This document shows, piece after piece, positions 1,924 to 64,000 of a DNA stretch of 64,000 nt (its first letter is position 1; the number at the start of each line of letters is the position of its first letter). The stretch lies in contig OZ024743.1 of NCBI GenBank assembly GCA_964016885.1, positions 66,030,001-66,094,000 on the forward strand, in the 5' to 3' direction. The position numbers were made by a program, and so were the translations under genes. The stretch is from Eledone cirrhosa. Its lineage: Eukaryota. The notes beneath the pieces are model-generated. The model had not been told where the DNA came from. It ran no database searches and was given only the letters and a program-made list of their open reading frames with translations.

Positions 1924-3338
1924 GATCTGAAATCTGAAACTCTATGCCAAGAACATGGATGGGATGAAGAAAAATCTTGACCTGGTTACAACGTTCTCAA
2001 AGGATATAGGAATGGAGTTTAGCCAAGATAAATGCTCATACATGACTGTAAAGCGGGGAAAAACAATAACCCAACATCAGTCCAGACAATATTTGAATGT
2101 CGCATCATATGTCTCCGACAACATCTACTAACCTCGAAGCGTAGGAGCCCGTTTCTCGATCAAGTCTATCTGCATGAAACAGATAAGATCATGAGAGTTG
2201 GGAAGGAACTCCTTGAGAGATATTTCCTGTGTGATAATCAAAAATTCACACCCAGGGAAGATGCTCAGCAGTATCGCAGTGAATCCATGGATGAAAAACT
2301 GCATGCCTATCAGCAAAACATCATGCATGGATATGTTGCCAGGAAGCTCCAGTGTGAGAGTAATATAGATAAGGAAAGTAGTCTATCTTGGACCAACAAC
2401 CGCTATATTGGCTCCCACTTTGAAGGATACGCTTTTGCAATCCGGAAACAGGAGTTTAATACGAAAAACCTGATTCACAAAAGAGATAGGGATGCAGGCA
2501 AAACACCTGGATGTGATAACAAGTGCAGACTCTGCAGAACTAACATCGAGGATATCACCCATGTCATCAGCAGCTGTCCAAAGATGTCATCACGGTACTA
2601 TCTACCTATGAGGCATGATGTAGTGGCCAAAACGCTGTACAATGCAGTTCGTAAAAAAGATAGCCCCGATAATAAACACATTAAAAGCTACAACAATGTG
2701 GAAGACATCCATGTACATAATATAAAAGAGTACTGGTGGAATGTTCCAGTAAAAACCCCAATCAAATACAGGCATAACAGACCAGCTATTATGATATGGG
2801 ACAGGGAGAAGAAAACATGCACAGTAGTGGAAATTAGCTGCCCAGCAGATGCAAATATAATATCAAAGATTAGTGAAAAGGCGAATATTTATGCAGAACT
2901 GATGAGAAATCTGCAGATACTCCACCCTGATTACACCTTCAGATTTATGACTGTCATTATTGGGGCACTGGGATATGTTAGTAACTGCCTCAATACAAGT
3001 CTTGAGAATCTAGGCTTCACAAGAACACAATTAGTTAGGAAATTACAAGTAGAATCCATTAATGGAACAGTAAAAATATGTAAAATATTCCAAAGATTTT
3101 GCATCTAATAACTGCATATACACATGTACAGATACAAAGTATATACACATGCACACATACAACTCAAAACATACACATCCACACATACAATAACATCCAT
3201 ATCTACACTTGCATGCATACATACATATCTACCTAGTTGATGTTGTGTAAATTCCAATGAGAGAATCTTGTGTCTATGTTAGAAACGGACTCTCTCTCTC
3301 TATTGGTAAAACTTTGTGAAATTATAAAACCAGAAGAA
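1924..3338 (+). mobile_element. Second R4/Dong-clade family, internally deleted: RT remnant fused to the C-terminal CCHC+RLE ORF (2032-3108), then 3' UTR
   Basis: 1933-2040 reads LKLYAKNMDGMKKNLDLVTTFSKDIGMEFSQDKC (just downstream of the RT YxDD position). The ORF has CRLCRTNIEDITHVISSC, RHD, HNRP(A)IMIWD and VEISCP. Ends in (CATA)n. Confidence 0.88.
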
Positions 3339-8135: not shown

Positions 8136-8317
8136 GTATATGTATATTTATTAAAATAACAGATTAAAGTTTAAGCAAAGAATCGCTGCTTTCACCCTTA
8201 ACGGGATCTTCTGAAACTAACGAAGTCAATCTGTAAACGCAGAACTGGATATTTCAAAATACGTTGCAACCGGAGGAAGACAGGAAGACGATACTTTGGT
8301 TCGTGGTAACGTTCGCT

Positions 8318-8570
8318 GGCAAAGAACGGGAAAAAACGGATAATACGTCATTAATAGGAGCGGTGAAAAACAATTACGCGCAAAGACAAAACCACGTTTA
8401 TGGTATAAAAGAGGTCGTAGACTAATGTTCTCTTAGGTGGTGCATAGAGACGTTCTCTGGCAATGAACGAAAAAACGAAGATAATAAGTCATATGTGGAG
8501 TGTGGAGAACAATAGCACGTAAAGACAAAACCACGTAAATGGTATAGCAGAAATCGTAGACTAAAATTCT
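8318..8570. repeat. Diverged tandem duplication, about 141 bp period
   Basis: GGCAAwGAACG...AAAGACAAAACCACGT...TCGTAGACTAA occurs at about 8318 and 8459. Confidence 0.7.
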
Positions 8571-14310: not shown

Positions 14311-15729
<1,419 letters not shown>

Positions 15730-17365: not shown

Positions 17366-17369
<4 letters not shown>

Positions 17370-17960
17370 AAAAATGAAATTTCATTTCTCACTCTTAGTA
17401 CGGCTGATACTTAAATATAAGTATGTATACGTACATACATATATGTATACATGCGTACAGTAGTATGTATATACATACATACATGCACACATATATATAT
17501 ATATATATATACGTGCGTATGGGTTTCCCGAACATTTATTATAATGCTCGGTTTGTTTGTAAACAAACAGCCCGAATTATTAGCCGTACGGTGTTCGGCA
17601 ACCATCGTTGCCATTTTGTTCAACACTGACAAAGGAACGATGAACTAGTTTCTAGCTTATTAGCTGTCATCAGCACTGTATACCTTCCTGTCAGTCAATT
17701 GAACGTTTGAAAGTATATACTTTCCTTATGCATATGAAGAGTGAGAAATGAAATTTCATTTTTTCCATTTATCGTTTTCGGTACGCCCGATCGACTAACT
17801 CACTCGATATGCAAATTAGGCTGCTCAGCCGTTAATATGCATTATAATAAATGTTCGGTAAACCCATACATACATATATATATATATATATGTGTGCATG
17901 TACATACTACTGTACGTCTGTATACATATATATGTACGTATACATACTTATACATATATA
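17366..17960 (-). mobile_element. Hammerhead retrozyme-like family P2, with an inverted segment from about 17737
   Basis: Homologous to 51863-52730, 55100-55570, 56577-57706 and 62760-63327; hammerhead at 17638-17678 (-). Confidence 0.8.
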
Positions 17961-31239: not shown

Positions 31240-31796
31240 AATTAAGTTAAAGTGTACATCTATATATGTATACGGAAGTATCAGTATGCATATATATATA
31301 CATATGTATACACACATGTGATTTATATATATATATATGCATACTGATACTTCCGTATACATATATAGATGTACACTTTAACTTAATTGTTTAAGCGTCA
31401 GTCATACAAAAGTGAGTTAGAAGCGAAACGAAATTTAATTTCGTTTCGTTATTCGTTTTTATCGTTTCCGCTGAACCGGTGCGTACAATGACTCACGTTC
31501 TATGCAAATTAGTCTGCCCACTACTGATTTTCATAGAAAAAGCATATAACGATATGTGCTTTTACAATTCTCCAGAGAAGCCGGAAAGATAGGTATATAT
31601 TGCTGATGAGATGTAATAACATCGAAACTAGTCCAATATTCCTGTCTGGCTCTCTGGAGAATAGAGGAAATGTGTTTCCTTGAAAACTCGTATGACTCTA
31701 AAACCCGGTTCGTCTGTTTACATACAGACTAGCTGGACACTCACTGTAAAGTGTCTAGTGAAAAGCTCGGTACATGTATATATGTATACATATGTG

Positions 31797-31860
<64 letters not shown>

Positions 31861-31978
31861 TACTGATACTTCCGTATACATATATAGATGTACACCTTAA
31901 CTTAATTGTTTAAGCGTCAGTCATACAAAAGTGAGTTAGAAGCGAAACGAAATTTAATTTCGTTTCGTTATTCGTTTT

Positions 31979-31981
<3 letters not shown>
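31240..31981 (+). mobile_element. Hammerhead retrozyme-like element, 519-nt unit, with a direct terminal repeat and an inverted 5' piece
   Basis: 31339-31462 is repeated at 31858-31981; an inverted copy lies at 31240-31300. Confidence 0.78.
31597..31639 (+). ncRNA. Canonical minimal type I hammerhead ribozyme
   Basis: ATATTG-CTGATGA-GATGT-AATA-ACATC-GAAAC-TA-GTC^CAATAT; all core nucleotides and stems are intact. Confidence 0.9.
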
Positions 31982-47533: not shown

Positions 47534-47583
47534 GAACTGTACTGATGAAGGATTATACCCAGAAACATTAGTGTCTGCAGTTC
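47534..47583 (+). ncRNA. Type I hammerhead, singleton family
   Basis: GAACTGTA-CTGATGA-AGGATTATACCCA-GAAAC-ATTAGT-GTC^TGCAGTTC; 8-bp stem I, weak stem II. Confidence 0.72.
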
Positions 47584-51862: not shown

Positions 51863-52730
51863 GATAAATGGAAAAGAATGAAACGAAATTTCATTTCTCA
51901 CTCTTAGTACGGCTGATACGTAAAGTCGCCCGGGCATACCGAAAACGACAAACTCACTGATATGCAAATTAGGCTGTTCAGCCGTTAATATGCATAAGGA
52001 AAGTATATACTTTCAGACCTTCAATCATCTGACAGAAAGGTATACGATGCTGACGATAGCTAATAAGCTTGAGACTAGTACATCGTTCCTGTGTCAGTGT
52101 TGAACAAAAGGGCGACGATGGTTGCCGAGCACTGTACTTCGTAATTCGGGCTTTGTTTACAAACAAACCGAACATTATAATAAATGTTCGGTAAACCCAT
52201 ACGTACATATATATATGTGTGCATTTATGTATATATAAACATACTACTGTGCGTCTGTATACATATATGTATGTACTTACACATAGTTATATTTAGGTAT
52301 CAGCCGTACTAAGAGTGAGAAAGGAAATTTCGTTTCATTCTTTTCCATTTATCGTGTTCGGTATCCCCGGCCGACTAACTCACTCGATATACAAATTAGG
52401 CTGCTCAGCCGTTAATATGCATAAGGAAAGTATATACTTTCAGACGTTCAATCATCTGACAGAAAGGTATACGATGCTGACGATAACTAATAAGCTTGAA
52501 ACTAGTACATCGTTCCTGTGTCAGTGTTGAACAAAAGGGCGACGATGGTTGCCGAACACTGTACGTCGTAATTCGGGCTGTTTGTTTACAAAAAAACCGA
52601 ACATTATAATAAATGTTCGGTAAACCCATACGTACATATATATATGTGTGCATGTATGTATATATATAGATACTACTGTGCGTCTGTACACATATATGTA
52701 TGTACGTATACATACTTATATTTGTATCTA
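51863..52730 (+). mobile_element. P2 retrozyme-like tandem (427-nt period, about 1.8 units) with an inverted 5' piece
   Basis: Hammerheads at 52045-52085 (GAAA changed to GAGA) and 52472-52512 (intact core). Confidence 0.82.
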
Positions 52731-52849
52731 CATGTCATTTATGGAAACTGGAATACACTTACATTCAGGCAAATAGTAAAGTAGAAAATCAAACTTTCCA
52801 GTTGTTGTCTTCCTGTTTCTTCTATAACAACTACAACGGCACGTAATGG

Positions 52850-53530
52850 GGCACACTCACGGCGGACAGAATGGAGAAGGCGTTTCCCCGGAGGTCGGCA
52901 AGGGAGACGTGCTGGAAAAGCCACTCCAACTCGCGGGGCTCACACCTGCGGCTGGCCAGCTCAGCGCCTATGGTGGTGAGTAAGGAGGTAGACTTGGGGC
53001 CGAGGACACCAGAAGTCCCCACTGCCAGGGGTACGACCGCAAACATGTCGGAGAGCGTGGAATTTGAGGAGTTTGGCCCCCTCAGCCCGAGGTGCAGCAG
53101 AACCCGGTTCAGCCGCAGACTGCACCAGGTTGCGGCTGCAGAAAGTGTCGATGCAAGTGGCATCCCAGACGAGGGGTTTGCCACCGCGGAACAGGAAGAT
53201 GGTCATGCCATCTGCCTTTTGCCGTCCCCTTGATCCAGCCCACTGGCTAGAGCTGGGAAGGGAAGCCTGCAGCGTCCAAGCCATGCTTAGTGACCTCGTT
53301 GAGGGCAGCATGGCGTGTAATGCAGTCGGCACTGTGGCGACAGAAAGCGGGTGGAAGCTGAAAGAGTCCACGGTAGAACCGCAGCGACATTGGTGTTGCT
53401 GGCAGATCCGGAGGCCGAACCTCAGGGAAACGCCGATGCGCAGGCTATGGTTATCTAGCTGCGTGCCAGTGGAGAAGGAGGGCAGGGCATGGAGCCAGGC
53501 ACCACTGTGATGTTTGGAGGCCGCACGAAA
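52850..53530 (-). mobile_element. CRE-clade non-LTR retrotransposon 3' fragment (Zn knuckle + RLE), frameshifted
   Basis: SGAWLHALPS..LRIGVSLRFGLRICQQHQCRCG, RH, DGMT..GKPLVWDATC, RGNAFSILS. Confidence 0.82.
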
Positions 53531-53972
53531 ACAAGCAGGCGGTATATCTATATATGTATATACAAATATTTACATATCTATATATGTATATACAAATGTT
53601 TATATATCTATATATGTATATACAAATGTTTATATATCTATATGTGTATATCCATATGTTTATATATCCATATCTATATATGTATATGCTTATATAGATA
53701 TACAAAGACTTCCACAAAACGATAAAAACAAATTATGTTAATTACCTGTCATATTGCACCAGGTGACGTTACTAGATTAAACAATTATTTTATCTTATTA
53801 ATAATTTTGAACCAAATTTGTGTGATTACTGTCTTCATTGTGATGGCGGTTAATGTTTAGTTACACAGCTTGTACTGATTTCTTCCTATACTAAATCAAA
53901 ACGTTTGATAATTGATTAGCCGAATGTAGAACACTATAATACACACATACCCACACGCATATATATATATAC

Positions 53973-54440: not shown

Positions 54441-55040
54441 ATACTTTGGGAGGGTCATGTTGCCAATAAGAAACATACGCACCAGTTGCTTTCACTTCAA
54501 TTTATTATATATTTATAAATTTATAAATTTACAAATCTACAAACTTATAAATTTCTGGTTGGTTGGTTGGTTCCACAACCAGATAGTTGTTTATATATAG
54601 TCATAGTCCTTTCGTCACACACTCTGTGACCTCTTCAGTGACTGGAGATTCCTTTCTTTGTTTCTGTGCCTTTCCTTTCTTCTGTCCTACGCCATTTTGT
54701 TTCTGTGTGACACACAGAAACAAAATGGCGTAGGACAGAAGAAAGGAAAAGCACAGAAACAAAGAAAGGAATCTCCAGTCACTGAAGAGGTCACAGAGTG
54801 TGTGACGAAAGGACTATGACTATATATAAACAACTATCTGGTTGTGGAACCAACCAACCAACCAGAAATTTATAAGTTTGTAGATTTGTAAATTTATAAA
54901 TTTATAAATATATAATAAATTGAAGTGAAAGCAACTGGTGCGTGTGTTTCTTATTGGCAACATGACCCTCCCAAAGTATAAAAATATCGGTTTCAACACA
55001 CGATTTCAGATAAAGAATCTTGCTAAACAAATTCAGAAAC

Positions 55041-55042: not shown

Positions 55043-55099
<57 letters not shown>

Positions 55100-55102
<3 letters not shown>

Positions 55103-55570
55103 GTACATACATATATGTATACAGACGTACAGTAGTATGTATATACATACATACATGCACATATATATATATATATATATATATGTACCTATGGGTTTAC
55201 CGAACATTTATTATAATGTTCGGTTTGTTTCTAAACAAACAGCCCGAATTAAGCCGTACAGTGTTCGGCAACCATCGTTGCCCTTTTGTTCAACACTGAC
55301 AAAGGAACGATGAACTAGTTTCTAGCTTATTAGCTGTCATCAGCACCCCGTATACCTACCTGTCAGTCGATGTCAGTCGATTGAACGTTTGAAAGTATAT
55401 ACTTTCCTTATGCATATTAACGGCTGAGCAGGCTAATTTGCATATCGAGTGAGTTAGTCGGCCGGGCGTACCGAAAACGATAAATGGAAAAAATGAAATT
55501 TGATTTCTCACTCTTAGTACGGCTGATACTTAAATATAAGTATGCATAAGGAAAGTATATACTTTCAATA
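55100..55570 (-). mobile_element. P2 retrozyme-like unit
   Basis: Hammerhead at 55308-55348 (-): GTG-CTGATGA-CAGCT-AATA-AGCTA-GAAAC-TA-GTT^CATCG. Confidence 0.8.
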
Positions 55571-56169
55571 TATATATAGTAATAATAATAAATGTGAAGA
55601 CTAAAATACAAAAAGGGCTCGATAAGGATAAATATATATCAAATATATAAGAACCCTAGAGCAAATATTTATTAAAACAACTGATTAAAGTTTAAGCAAA
55701 GAATCCTTAACGGGATCTTCTGAAACTAGTTTCAGAAGATTCCGTTAGGGGTGAAAGCAACGATTCTTTGCTTAAACTTTAATCTGTTATTTTAATATAT
55801 ATATATATATATATATGAATAATTCAATCACTGGATTTCACTGAACTACATTCTAACGGATTAACGGATTACATTGAATTCTAATTACGGTATAGACCCT
55901 ACTGAGAAAGGTAGACCATTGAATTGTATATATAATGAAGAAAACCCAAGGCTAACAACTTAAATCCATTCTTTAATTTCTACGTACATTTCTCTACTGG
56001 TGATGATAGTACATGAATATGTAAACAGTAAGTTAATCGCAAACAGTTAATTATCAATTATCAGGAACTACAAAACATTTAACCAAATTCAAATTATAAG
56101 AATAGATAGTATATCAAATGTTGAACGTTGGTAAATATTACTTTAAAAGATAATAGTGGTATACTCCAT

Positions 56170-56195
<26 letters not shown>

Positions 56196-56202
<7 letters not shown>

Positions 56203-56558
56203 AAGTTAAATAAAAGTCAAATGATTAAAATTTAGCTTCGTTTATTACTGCTATATATATTTCAGTGACAGCCATCTTTGGCTGTGACCTCTTCAGGCAG
56301 TTTGAATTAGTATGGTATAGACATTGTACTTGTCTATACCATACTAATTCAAACTGCCTGAAGAGGTCACAGCCAAAGATGGCTGTCACTGAAATATATA
56401 TAGCAGTAATAAACGAAGCTAAATTTTAATCATTTGACTTTTATTTAACTTTATTTTACACTACTCCGGAGTAACCAAACCAACCTGCGCACTTCGTCGA
56501 GTGCTCCAGCCTGCATACTGAGGTGTTGGTATACAACCAACATAAACTCAAAATCTCT
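56196..56558 (+). mobile_element. Palindrome (128-bp arms, 7-nt loop) plus a tail of about 100 bp
   Basis: Arms 56196-56323 and 56331-56458; the tail matches 13975-14050. Confidence 0.85.
56353..56407 (+). ncRNA. Type I hammerhead, family H-AUA (mirror copy at 56247-56301, -)
   Basis: ACTGC-CTGAAGA-GGTC-ACAGCCA-AAGA-TGGCTGT-CACT-GAAAT-ATAT-ATA^GCAGT. Confidence 0.85.
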
Positions 56559-56576
56559 ATATATATATATATATAT

Positions 56577-56692
56577 AAGTTGGAATAGAATGAAACGAAA
56601 TTTCATTTCTCACTCTTAGTACGGCACTTACTTAAATGTAAGTATGTATGTATACGTACATACATATATGTATACAGACGTACAGTAGCATG

Positions 56693-56724
<32 letters not shown>

Positions 56725-57706
56725 TATACATACAGGCACACATATATACATGTACGTATCAGTTTAGCGAATATTTATTATAACATTCGCTTTGTTCGTT
56801 TGTACACAAACGGACAGCCTGATTTATGCCGTACGGTGTTAAGGCAACCACGTCACCTTTTTGTTCAACACTGACACAGGAACGATGTACTAGTTTCAAG
56901 CTTGTTAGCTATCGTCACCACCGTATACCCTTCTGCCAGATGGTTGAACGTTCGAAAGTATATACTTTCCTTATGAAAATTAACGGCTGAGCAGCCTAAT
57001 TTGCATATCGAGTGAGTTCAGTCGGCCAGGCGCACCGAAAACGATAAGTTGGAATAGAATGAAACGAAATTTCATTTCTCACTCTTAGTACGGCACTTAC
57101 TTAAATGTAAGTATGTATGTATACGTACATACATATATGTATACAGACGTACAGTAGCATGTATATAGATATATATATATACATATACATACAGGCACAC
57201 ATATATACATGTACGTATCAGTTTAGCGAATATTTATTATAACATTCGCTTTGTTCGTTTGTACACAAACGGACAGCCTGATTTATGCCGTACGGTGTTA
57301 AGGCAACCACGTCACCTTTTTGTTCAACACTGACACAGGAACGATGTACTAGTTTCAAGCTTGTTAGCTATCGTCAGCACCGTATACCCTTCTGCCAGAT
57401 GGTTGAACGTTCGAAAGTATATACTTTCCTTATGAAAATTAACGGCTGAGCAGCCTAATTTGCATATCGAGTGAGTTCAGTCGGCCAGGCGCACCGAAAA
57501 CGATAAGTTGGAATAGAATGAAACGAAATTTCATTTCTCACTCTTAGTACGGCACTTACTTAAATGTAAGTATGTATGTATACGTACATACATATATGTA
57601 TACAGACGTACAGTAGCATGTATATAGATATATATATATACATATACATACAGGCACACATATATACATGTACGTATCAGTTTAGCGAATATTTATTATA
57701 ACATTC
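56577..57706 (-). mobile_element. P2 retrozyme-like tandem array (about 2.4 units of 459-469 nt)
   Basis: Unit starts at 56577, 57046 and 57505; hammerheads at 56883-56923 (core C changed to G) and 57342-57382 (intact). Confidence 0.88.
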
Positions 57707-58306
57707 ACTTACTATATATATATATATATATAGTAAAAGTAAACAACAATTACAAGGTGTACAGTTACGAAAGGTGTTAGGTATTATATATAGATACTAC
57801 TACACCAAATGACCAGCCCTGTCCACTGTCCAATTGGTCAAGTATAGATTAAAATTGGCACTCCCAAAAATTCTTATTTAGATAAAATAAACCATTTACT
57901 CATGGTATTCTCATTAGAAACCCTTTATATACTTGTTTAGCAGTAAATTGAATTACCATCTGTCATATACTATCCCCTCTCTTCTTCCTCTATTACTAAT
58001 ATAAATACTTCAATTTTTCTGATTTTATCCAATTTATCCAAAATCTCTGATGAAGTGACAACTGATTATACATTTGCTATCGAATACTTGCTAACATTAT
58101 ATGATTACGCAAGCAGCGATACATAGGTATTCCGTCTGTTACAGAAACATATGTCAATTCCTTTTTTTAAAAAAAGCACTTTCATTTTATATTCATCTTT
58201 TCTACATTTTCTCCGGAATATAATTTATACTCGTTGAGCAAACCTACACGTACGCTGTTCATCTCTAACGTAACGATATATTATCACTACATTATTGATA
58301 ACCTGA

Positions 58307-62768: not shown

Positions 62769-63327
62769 GTATGTATATATATACATACTACTGTACGTCT
62801 GTATACATATATGAATGTACGTATACATACATACATTTAAGTACCAGCCGTACTAAGAGTGAGAAATGAAATTTCGTTTCATTCTTTTCCATTTAGCGTT
62901 TTCGGTGCGCCAGGCCGACTAACTCACTCGATATGCAAATTAGGCTGCTCAGCTGTTAATATGCATAAGGAAAGTATATACTTTCAGACGTACAACCATC
63001 TGACAGAAAGGTATACGATGCTGACGATAGTTAATAAGCTTGAAACTAGTACATTGTTCCTGTGTCAGTGTTGAACAAAAAGGTGACGATGGTTGCCTGA
63101 ACACTGTACGGCGTAATTCGGGCTGTTTGTTTACAAATAAACCGAGTATTATAATAAATGTCCGGTAAACCCATACGTACATATATATATATATGTGCAT
63201 GTATGTATATATATACATACTACTGTACGTCTGTATACATATATGTATGTACGTATACATACATATATTTAAGTAGCAGCCGTACTAAGAGTGAGAAATG
63301 AAATTTCGTTTCATTCTTTTCCATTTA
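62760..63327 (+). mobile_element. P2 retrozyme-like element (432-nt period, about 1.3 units)
   Basis: TACTAAGAGTGAGAAATG at 62851 and 63283; hammerhead at 63016-63056. Confidence 0.82.
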
Positions 63328-64000
63328 TATATATATATATAAATATATATATAAATATAAATATGTGTGTGTGTCAGTATATTCATATATATATATATAT
63401 ATGTATATATTCGCGTGTGTATGTCTGTGTGTTTGTAAAAAAAAATATATATATAATGTAAATGATTGAACTGACAGAGTAACCTACATGCCGTCGAAAC
63501 ATCCATAATCTCACATTGGCAATATATTTTGTGTACATTACTAGGTGACTTTCTTTGTTTCTGTAACAATCTAAACTATAATAAAGTAAGGAGTGCGGGA
63601 CCGCGTCTAGAATATATTTAAAAAAAATAAATAATGAATGAATATTACATAATTTATCTACTAAATTTCGTTATTCTTGATTAAATATTTTTGCTTATTT
63701 TAAGATCCAATTCATTAAAATTCTCATATGTCAAAACTTCCGGTTAGCGACCGCTTAAATAAACATTCATATATTTCCGTCACTAATTTTCTATCGTCTT
63801 TTTTTAATGTATCATGATTACGTTACTGATTACATAAGACAGTGTAACGCAGTCTTCGTTCAATTTCTGTGTATATTGTCAATTACGATTTTATTTGATG
63901 TATCTTAACTACATGCATATATGCTTGCGTATAATATCAATGTACATTACACATGCTATCAATGCACATTACACATGCTAGTTTTATTTGATGGAAGCAA

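What the first reader, a model, noticed from the sequence alone, without database searches (positions are those of the whole stretch)
56577..57706. Tandem 430-470 nt non-coding units with one hammerhead each: candidate cephalopod retrozyme / circular RNA family (P2)
Seen: about 2.4 head-to-tail, nearly identical units with no ORF. Each complete unit has a minimal type I hammerhead (CGrTG-CTGAyGA-AGCT/AGCT-GAAAC-TA-GTA^CATCG) with the palindromic ACTAGT stem III. The family occurs at five loci (17366, 51863, 55100, 56577, 62760), three of them longer than one unit. Several copies end at the same sense position (TTCCA-yTTAT or a few nt short of it, running into TA repeats), about 270 nt downstream of the cleavage site rather than at it. 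Known: metazoan non-LTR retrozymes are tandem hammerhead repeats that yield circRNAs and are thought to be mobilised by Penelope-like elements, and minimal hammerheads with palindromic loop 3 can act as dimers. Inference: insertions that begin inside the unit and run across the ribozyme junction for more than one unit fit reverse transcription around a circular or multimeric template.
Basis: partly seen in the sequence, partly recalled or inferred. Interest (0 to 1): 0.88.

Follow-up and report, generated by a model that had tools for sequence, protein, structure and literature searches.

The report
Retrozyme repeat with Penelope-type insertion ends
This is one of more than 27,000 genomic copies of a 459-base, protein-free repeat that carries a hammerhead-ribozyme motif and sits in TA microsatellites, often as two back-to-back arms ending at two different fixed sites; it is likely a retrozyme (a known kind of jumping element) copied by a Penelope-type retrotransposon, and its predicted self-cutting and circular RNA are untested.

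Summary
The array is real: 2.5 units of 459 nt on the minus strand, without an ORF. Only one of its two hammerheads is intact; the other has C3G. By the 2014 definition the motif is a canonical metazoan type I hammerhead, not a minimal one. The family has 27,526 exact ribozyme matches; a related, younger group adds about 9,800. Helices I and II covary. Two-armed insertions carry one of each: 55 of 55 scorable in the young group and 18 of 26 in this family, none alike (hand count). That matches the Penelope 'tail at one end' signature. Intact Penelope-like families exist, but none of four tested shares sequence with the unit. A circular template is plausible but not shown; my RNA-editing evidence weakened on testing. 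Verdict: new member of the known animal non-LTR retrozymes. The scan noted this reading before on other DNA of this and other genomes.

The parts
56575..57706 (-). Main arm, about 2.5 units: starts at unit position 100 (57706), crosses two ribozyme junctions, ends at the distal end site E2 (unit position 303)
56888..57346 (-). One complete 459-nt monomer, predicted cleavage site to predicted cleavage site; 37.7% GC; fold z = -7.9 (-4.3 without the TA-rich hairpin)
57341..57383 (-). Intact type I hammerhead motif: helix I 6 bp, CUGACGA, helix II 4 bp over U-U, GAAA, helix III 2 bp in palindromic ACUAGU; predicted cut between 57347 and 57346
56882..56924 (-). Second hammerhead motif with C3G (GUGACGA), predicted inactive core
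   Evidence: C3G effect as stated in PMC11167929
56558..56577 (.). (TA)10 run at the E2 end; likely the insertion target; overlaps the unit end by 3 nt
57707..57712 (+). Six bases ACTTAC equal to unit positions 237-242 in the opposite orientation: possible vestigial second arm ending at the proximal end site E1
   Evidence: this 6-mer precedes 1 of 1909 TA runs scored, namely this one; suggestive only
57713..57732 (.). (TA)10 run at the other side of the insertion
57458..57465 (-). Octamer ATGCAAAT about 80 nt upstream of the ribozyme core (again at 56999-57006); kept in both related groups; promoter role untested
17366..17952 (.). Sister locus, two arms: minus arm with hammerhead ending at E2 (17366), plus arm with an internal deletion ending at E1
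51863..52723 (.). Sister locus, two arms: short minus arm ending at E2 (51863), plus arm of about 1.8 units with two hammerheads (one with GAGA for GAAA) ending at E1
55090..55547 (-). Sister locus, about one unit, ending near E1
62783..63328 (+). Sister locus, about 1.3 units, ending at E2
31240..31981 (.). Member of a related younger group (467-nt unit, hammerhead 31603-31633 on plus): short minus arm ending at E1, plus arm ending at E2

Best explanation
The array is one copy of a very numerous non-coding tandem repeat with a hammerhead motif, and it is likely a non-autonomous retrozyme that a Penelope-like reverse transcriptase-endonuclease copies in trans into TA microsatellites. Shown in the sequence: tandem units, a covarying hammerhead, two fixed end sites downstream of the ribozyme (E1 near 240, E2 near 303), TA runs at the ends, back-to-back arms with one end of each type, and scattered 5' junctions. 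Inferred: the enzyme nicks both strands of a (TA)n target; each nick primes reverse transcription inside the RNA, one at E1 and one at E2; both cDNAs run 5'-ward through the ribozyme junction for a variable length and are joined head to head by microhomology. Inferred and less certain (about 55%): the template is the ribozyme-cut, ligated monomer circle; otherwise it is an uncut multimer. Some arrays then grow by local duplication. The focal copy has since lost one catalytic core (C3G) and is probably a dead end as a source of monomers.
For: Copy number 27,526 with control 0. Helices I and II: 93.8% of cells paired, 6 of 16 pairs changed on both sides, 0 of 500 shuffles reach the covariation score; slid controls 30-49% paired. 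Young group: of 78 loci, 44 had hammerheads in both orientations; 42 were E1/E2, 1 E2/other, 1 complex; of 33 loci with one ribozyme-bearing arm, 13 had a short opposite arm, all of the complementary type, 20 had none detected. Focal family, position-ordered sample: 18 of 26 two-armed loci E1/E2, 8 with one arm ending elsewhere, none alike (hand count). Junction overlap of -2 to +5 nt in 30 of 43 loci. Autonomous Penelope-like copies show the same two TA-flanked ends in inverted arms (L130, L134). Young families with open 775-, 713- and 927-aa frames exist. Literature: tail on one of the inverted pLTRs (PMC3846280; PMC8557442); the Anolis enzyme cuts and extends both strands and starts at two internal sites, using unprocessed RNA (PMC11167929). 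For one template unit: 167 of 169 locus-by-site cells uniform at subfamily sites and 5 variants fixed across passes; the focal array's T83G haplotype occurs only in its own two passes (2 hits) against 324 for the T form.
Against: No partner found: the unit profile does not match the 3' regions of four Penelope-like families, and a resemblance between the unit's end and one family's end is not significant (22-127 of 500 shuffles score as high). Clade labels are recalled. Long arrays show block-shared variants (C1:5.74 Mb, 14.0 Mb, one arm at 56.4 Mb) and L214 alternates with period two, so units also multiply locally or come from mixed multimers. The focal T83G lies in a part that a 1.5-unit insertion would hold once, so later duplication explains it equally. 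The 20-pass triple A-to-G haplotype is at 7 places, not one. In the Anolis system, ribozyme mutants insert normally, and only 1 of 9 Xenopus dimers cleaved in vitro (10.64898/2026.07.22.740005).
Confidence: 0.8

Rival explanations
1. Same enzyme, but the template is an uncut linear multimer transcribed from tandem loci; the hammerhead is a passenger or acts rarely, and long arms arise by later unequal exchange. No circle is needed.
For: Unprocessed RNA is the main substrate in vitro for the Anolis element. Period-two and period-three variant patterns. The triple A-to-G haplotype is shared by 7 places, as from one genomic source. No pile-up of 5' starts at the cut site.
Against: Several arrays carry a variant in every pass of both arms while all other differences are single-unit (L184, L172). 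The catalytic core is kept with compensatory helix changes across groups only about 65% alike. Related retrozymes of coral, mussel and axolotl accumulate as circles (PMC7229834).
Confidence: 0.35
2. The units are solo, amplified pseudo-LTRs of an autonomous Penelope-like family not sampled here, moved in cis as 5'-truncated products.
For: 24 of 57 Xenopus retrozyme families matched known elements, 21 of the 22 being Penelope-like. The end pattern equals that of autonomous families. At L135 a unit abuts the start of a full-length ORF. Only four of many families were tested.
Against: Arms run head to tail through unit position 303 into the next unit, up to 31 ribozymes, without any ORF. No sense-continuous ORF in the neighbours printed. 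No similarity to four families' 3' regions.
Confidence: 0.1
3. A satellite spread at the DNA level (unequal exchange, extrachromosomal circles, fold-back repair), with no RNA step.
For: Local expansion is visible in long arrays; TA runs favour slippage and fold-back.
Against: It does not predict two fixed outer ends, always one of each type, with scattered inner junctions, nor sequence-identical copies on different contigs, nor conserved RNA helices.
Confidence: 0.04

Closest known systems
Animal non-LTR retrozymes of coral, mussel and axolotl (Cervera and de la Pena 2020, PMC7229834; passages and parts 2-4 of 6 read)
   Same: Tandem non-coding units with one type I hammerhead, GC under 50%, stable fold; U-U mismatch at the base of helix II as in axolotl HHR_Amex2; Penelope-like elements proposed as helpers.
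   Different: Unit longer (422-538 nt against about 220-390). The parts read report no fixed end sites or two-armed insertions. RNA, cleavage and circles were shown there and are untested here. Supplement not read.
Vertebrate non-LTR retrozyme survey (Li, Clavereau, Pollet 2026, 10.64898/2026.07.22.740005; parts 1-3 of 5 read)
   Same: Retrozymes as non-autonomous Penelope-like derivatives; monomers, dimers and multimers dispersed through the genome.
   Different: Their link rests on co-occurrence and pLTR similarity; no mollusc was sampled; here the link rests on insertion anatomy and no pLTR similarity was found. The focal locus fails their 'active' rule of two consecutive complete ribozymes. 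Supplements closed.
Endonuclease-bearing Penelope-like elements (PMC3846280 passages; PMC8557442 passages; PMC11167929 parts 1-2 of 4; PMC4209133 parts 1-2 of 4)
   Same: Partial tandems, an inverted 5'-truncated arm, a tail on one end, AT-rich or microsatellite targets, ends internal and downstream of a hammerhead.
   Different: No ORF; tail about 60-70 nt, not 30-40; ends 220-300 nt after the cut site; canonical rather than minimal ribozyme; both ends overlap a few TA-like bases of the unit, whereas the Anolis enzyme starts at sites not homologous to the target.
Newt satellite 2 (seen only as a cited statement in PMC2220036)
   Same: Hammerhead satellite with an internal snRNA-type promoter; our unit has an octamer upstream of the ribozyme (that the newt promoter uses an octamer is recalled).
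   Different: Promoter function untested here; a haplotype with the octamer broken is still found at 7 places.

Membership tests
Animal non-LTR retrozyme | Short head-to-tail tandem units, dimers to multimers | tested here: met
   Period 459, 2.5 copies; 43 distinct monomers of 422-538 nt; arms up to 31 ribozymes in the related group
Animal non-LTR retrozyme | One type I hammerhead per unit | tested here: met
   Family level: 27,526 exact matches, covariation. At the focal locus 1 of 2 cores is intact
Animal non-LTR retrozyme | No coding capacity, GC under 50% | tested here: met
   Longest ATG frame 54 aa; 37.7% GC
Animal non-LTR retrozyme | Highly self-paired monomer | tested here: met
   z -7.9, 0 of 100 shuffles; z -4.3 and -9.4 without the TA-rich hairpin, 60 shuffles each
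Animal non-LTR retrozyme | No LTR, primer-binding site or polypurine tract | not tested
   No LTR layout seen in the loci mapped; no dedicated search for PBS or PPT
Animal non-LTR retrozyme | Target-site duplication longer than 4 bp when present | tested here: inconclusive
   Both flanks are TA runs, so a duplication cannot be read
Animal non-LTR retrozyme | Self-cleavage, more efficient as dimer | not testable with these tools
Animal non-LTR retrozyme | Expressed as linear and circular monomer RNA | not testable with these tools
   Needs RNA reads or a northern blot
'Active' retrozyme locus (Li et al. 2026) | Two consecutive units with complete ribozymes | tested here: not met
   Focal locus has C3G in one core; many sister arrays meet the rule
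Minimal hammerhead of Penelope-like elements (Cervera 2014) | No helix III, helix II 7-8 bp, helix I 4-5 bp | tested here: not met
   Helix I 6 bp, helix II 4-5 bp, helix III 2 bp = canonical metazoan type
Penelope-type insertion product | Inverted 5'-truncated arm next to the 5' end | tested here: met
   57 of 78 young-group loci show an opposite arm (44, 13 more); 26 two-armed cases in 55 focal-family stretches (hand count); at most a 6-nt vestige at the focal locus
Penelope-type insertion product | Tail extension at one end only (two internal start sites) | tested here: met
   55 of 55 scorable pairs E1/E2; 18 of 26, none alike
Penelope-type insertion product | AT-rich or microsatellite target | tested here: met
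   TA runs follow nearly all E1 and E2 ends; empty sites not available
Autonomous Penelope-like element or its pLTR | Attached RT and GIY-YIG ORF, or similarity to a pLTR | tested here: not met
   No similarity to the 3' regions of four families; other families untested

The most novel reading that the evidence does not exclude
A dimeric Penelope-like enzyme loads on one small ribozyme-made RNA circle, primes from both nicks of a TA break at two fixed sites 60-70 nt apart, and rolls around the circle for up to tens of turns; the E1/E2 rule would then be the general explanation of the Penelope tail and inverted arm, and some insertions would preserve A-to-I edits of the circle in every turn.
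Probability: 0.35. Interest if true: 0.7.

Novelty: new member of a known kind. Interest (0 to 1): 0.45.

Why it matters
Animal retrozymes were assumed to borrow Penelope-like enzymes on indirect grounds. Here tens of thousands of copies carry the Penelope insertion signature with a strict rule, one arm at each of two start sites, and young autonomous families with open frames are present in the same genome. That gives a short RNA, two predicted priming positions, a defined target and candidate enzymes for an in vitro test of how Penelope-like elements make tails, inverted arms and tandems, and of whether a circle is the template. The element class itself is known, and this locus is an ordinary, partly decayed copy. 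Searches for a printed cephalopod retrozyme or a printed two-end rule for retrozymes found none; the library lacks most subscription papers and repeat databases.

Tried and rejected
Rfam at gathering thresholds: no match. Expression: no RNA holder listed; contigs of four runs of unrecorded kind could not show starts, ends or joints. Shared 3' motif with the 775-aa family as a sign of partnership: looked convincing by eye, not significant against shuffles (first try failed). Unit as pLTR of four Penelope-like families: no match. Penelope-like fragments near units: read as separate insertions into the same TA runs, not tested statistically. A-to-I editing of the template: strict set 9 A-to-G against 1 T-to-C of 15 fixed variants, singletons 55 against 51 of 499; looser set 16 against 10 of 40; focal family 1 against 3 of 19; best example not private; kept as a lead only. 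cDNAs stopping at the cut site: not seen. An automatic end caller for the focal family overran into AT-rich flanks (31 of 107 ends unclassed), so the anchor-based table was counted by hand. L181 was dropped as a duplicate of L173. The protein alignment was not used further. A paper search on retrozymes and editing gave nothing relevant. The scan's look-up by sequence returned nothing.

Full report
Observation. Tandem Repeats Finder reports 56575-57710 with period 459, 2.5 copies and 98% matches. The ribozyme reads on the minus strand. The arm starts at unit position 100 (57706), passes two junctions and ends at position 303, between two (TA)10 runs. The core pattern occurs 8 times in the window against 0.36 expected. 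The upstream ribozyme (57377-57347) is intact; the downstream one (56918-56888) reads GTGACGA. PMC11167929 states that C3G abolishes cleavage, so this locus probably cannot release a monomer alone (inference). Within the arm the passes differ by this change, one other substitution and a 10-nt TA-rich insertion. There is no ORF above 54 aa, GC is 37.7%, and Rfam gives no match. The five window loci are real, and three have an arm longer than one unit. The host taxon was not tested.

The ribozyme and the fold. On 12 sequences from the family and a related group, 93.8% of cells pair, 6 of 16 pairs change on both sides, 0 of 500 shuffles reach the covariation score, and slid controls pair at 30-49%; the sequences are related, so the changes are few independent events. 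The base of helix II is unpaired in the 9 focal-family rows and G-C in the 3 others. Helix III is invariant, with 2 bp and a 2-nt loop inside ACUAGU; the energy model forbids that loop, while two copies pair at -4.8 kcal/mol, which fits dimer action but does not show it. PMC4209133 calls this build canonical and keeps 'minimal' for motifs without helix III. The monomer folds at z = -7.9 and -4.3 without its TA-rich hairpin.

Family size. The genome holds 27,526 exact matches to the family's ribozyme pattern, control 0. A second group, found at window 31240-31981 and about 65% alike by eye, shares the layout, an octamer and a hairpin before the end. It has copies identical over 386 nt on different contigs. 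Two patterns count 4,176 and 5,661 matches; the second includes a few variants of the first family.

Ends. There are two: E1 (about 235-245 in the focal family, 221-227 in the young group) and E2 (296-303 and 291-297); among the closest relatives of the focal copy some arms also stop in the internal TA run. In the young group 78 loci were scored. Of 44 with ribozymes in both orientations, 42 had one E1 and one E2 end, one had E2 and another end, and one was complex. Of 33 with one ribozyme-bearing arm ending at E1 or E2, 13 had a short opposite arm, always of the other type, and 20 had none detected; one locus ended elsewhere. In 55 stretches of the focal family taken in order of position, I count 26 two-armed cases: 18 E1/E2, 8 with one arm ending elsewhere, none alike (by hand). 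The window loci at 17366 and 51863 follow the rule. At the focal locus six bases (57707-57712) equal the E1 end in opposite orientation; that 6-mer precedes 1 of 1909 TA runs scored, this one, so a vestigial second arm is possible. Inner junctions overlap by -2 to +5 nt in 30 of 43 loci; the 74 resolved 5' starts are spread over the unit, four lie just upstream of the cut site and none at positions 1-11.

Link to Penelope-like elements. An inverted 5'-truncated arm and a tail on one end are described for these elements (PMC8557442; PMC3846280). The Anolis enzyme cuts and extends both strands of AT-rich DNA, starts at two internal RNA sites whose spacing is the tail, is predicted to dimerise, and uses mostly unprocessed RNA. 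The genome has young families with open frames of 775, 713 and 927 aa and an older one; a GIY-YIG domain is detected in one fragment, and homologues carry RT and GIY-YIG labels. I call them Neptune-like and Hydra-like from recalled motifs. Their copies show two TA-flanked ends in inverted arms. None of the four shares sequence with the unit in its 3' region, and an end motif that looked shared was not significant. The helper is therefore inferred by signature and not identified.

Circle or multimer. For a single template unit: 167 of 169 cells are uniform at subfamily sites in the young group and 1167 of 1216 in the focal family (where some stretches hold two separate insertions); five variants are fixed across passes, among them one in 8 of 8 passes over both arms and one in 7 of 7, in arrays whose other differences are mostly single-unit; one insertion has 18 of 18 identical units over both arms; the focal T83G haplotype is found only in its own two passes, against 324 hits for the T form. 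Against: long arrays show block-shared variants, L214 alternates with period two, later duplication explains T83G equally well, and inverted arms can be homogenised by conversion. Fixed variants were rich in A-to-G under a strict rule (9 of 15, T-to-C 1; singletons 55 and 51 of 499), less so under a loose rule (16 and 10 of 40), and not in the focal family (1 and 3 of 19). The best case, three A-to-G changes in 20 passes, is present at 7 places (69 hits), so it marks a small subfamily and not one edited circle. I put the circle at about 55%.

Comparison and novelty. The element fits the non-LTR retrozymes shown to form circles in coral, mussel and axolotl (PMC7229834). A 2026 preprint argues from co-occurrence and pLTR similarity that they are non-autonomous Penelope-like sequences and found cleavage in 1 of 9 dimers. 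PMC4209133 already proposed circles as templates for more-than-unit copies. Searches showed no cephalopod retrozyme paper and no two-end rule for retrozymes; the supplement of PMC7229834 was not read and that of the preprint is closed, and either could list related repeats. After my end and variant counts I looked up the scan's notes: other agents reached the same two-armed, two-site reading on other DNA of this and other genomes. These notes are not independent evidence.

Verdict. A real, partly decayed copy of a very large retrozyme family with a strict Penelope-type insertion signature: new member of a known kind, interest 0.45. The rolling-circle, two-primer model is the bold reading (probability 0.35, interest 0.7).

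Noticed in passing
window 54590-55040: Another non-coding element with a hammerhead-like core (CTGAAGA ... GAAA) in a palindromic two-armed layout between TA runs; its ends recur in the flanks of many loci.
   Followed up: no
window 55580-55800: Solo terminus of the 713-aa Penelope-like family, two-armed around ACTAGT, one arm ending at its far end and the other at its near end, directly beside a unit of the focal family.
   Followed up: partly
window 47542-47575: A further hammerhead motif with an 8-bp helix I and a different helix III, next to a long TA run.
   Followed up: no
window 56190-56460: Perfect palindrome with CTGAAGAGGTCACAGCC arms between TA run and unique DNA; probably another two-armed terminus.
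   Followed up: no
window 8309-8564: The 139-nt tandem matches, by eye, the 3' untranslated region of the 713-aa family in reverse.
   Followed up: no
L129, 3' region: The 775-aa family has a hammerhead-like motif with TTGAAAA in place of CTGANGA and a palindromic ACCGGT loop, about 78 nt before its near end; resembles the U3-A8 variant of PMC4209133.
   Followed up: no
L135, upstream of 2728: A two-armed unit insertion abuts the 5' start of a full-length 713-aa ORF; either insertion into the flanking TA or a template switch.
   Followed up: partly
L259-L260 (G000:C1:30.83-30.84 Mb) and six other places: A haplotype with three A-to-G changes that break the octamer is still spread as long arrays (69 hits); the octamer may not be needed, or one source made them all.
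   Followed up: partly
L172, L214, L217: Higher-order patterns: a deleted unit recurring every second unit, and variants alternating between passes; dimeric templates or later block duplication.
   Followed up: partly
L032-L034 (G000:C28:19.363-19.384 Mb): A cluster of about 35 units of the focal subfamily, 82-97% alike, many with damaged cores; looks like an ageing expanded array rather than a master locus.
   Followed up: partly
window 2032-3108, 14637-15458, 52830-53570: ORF fragments that look like other mobile elements (non-LTR C-terminal region, mariner-type transposase, GC-rich retroelement piece); names recalled, not tested.
   Followed up: no
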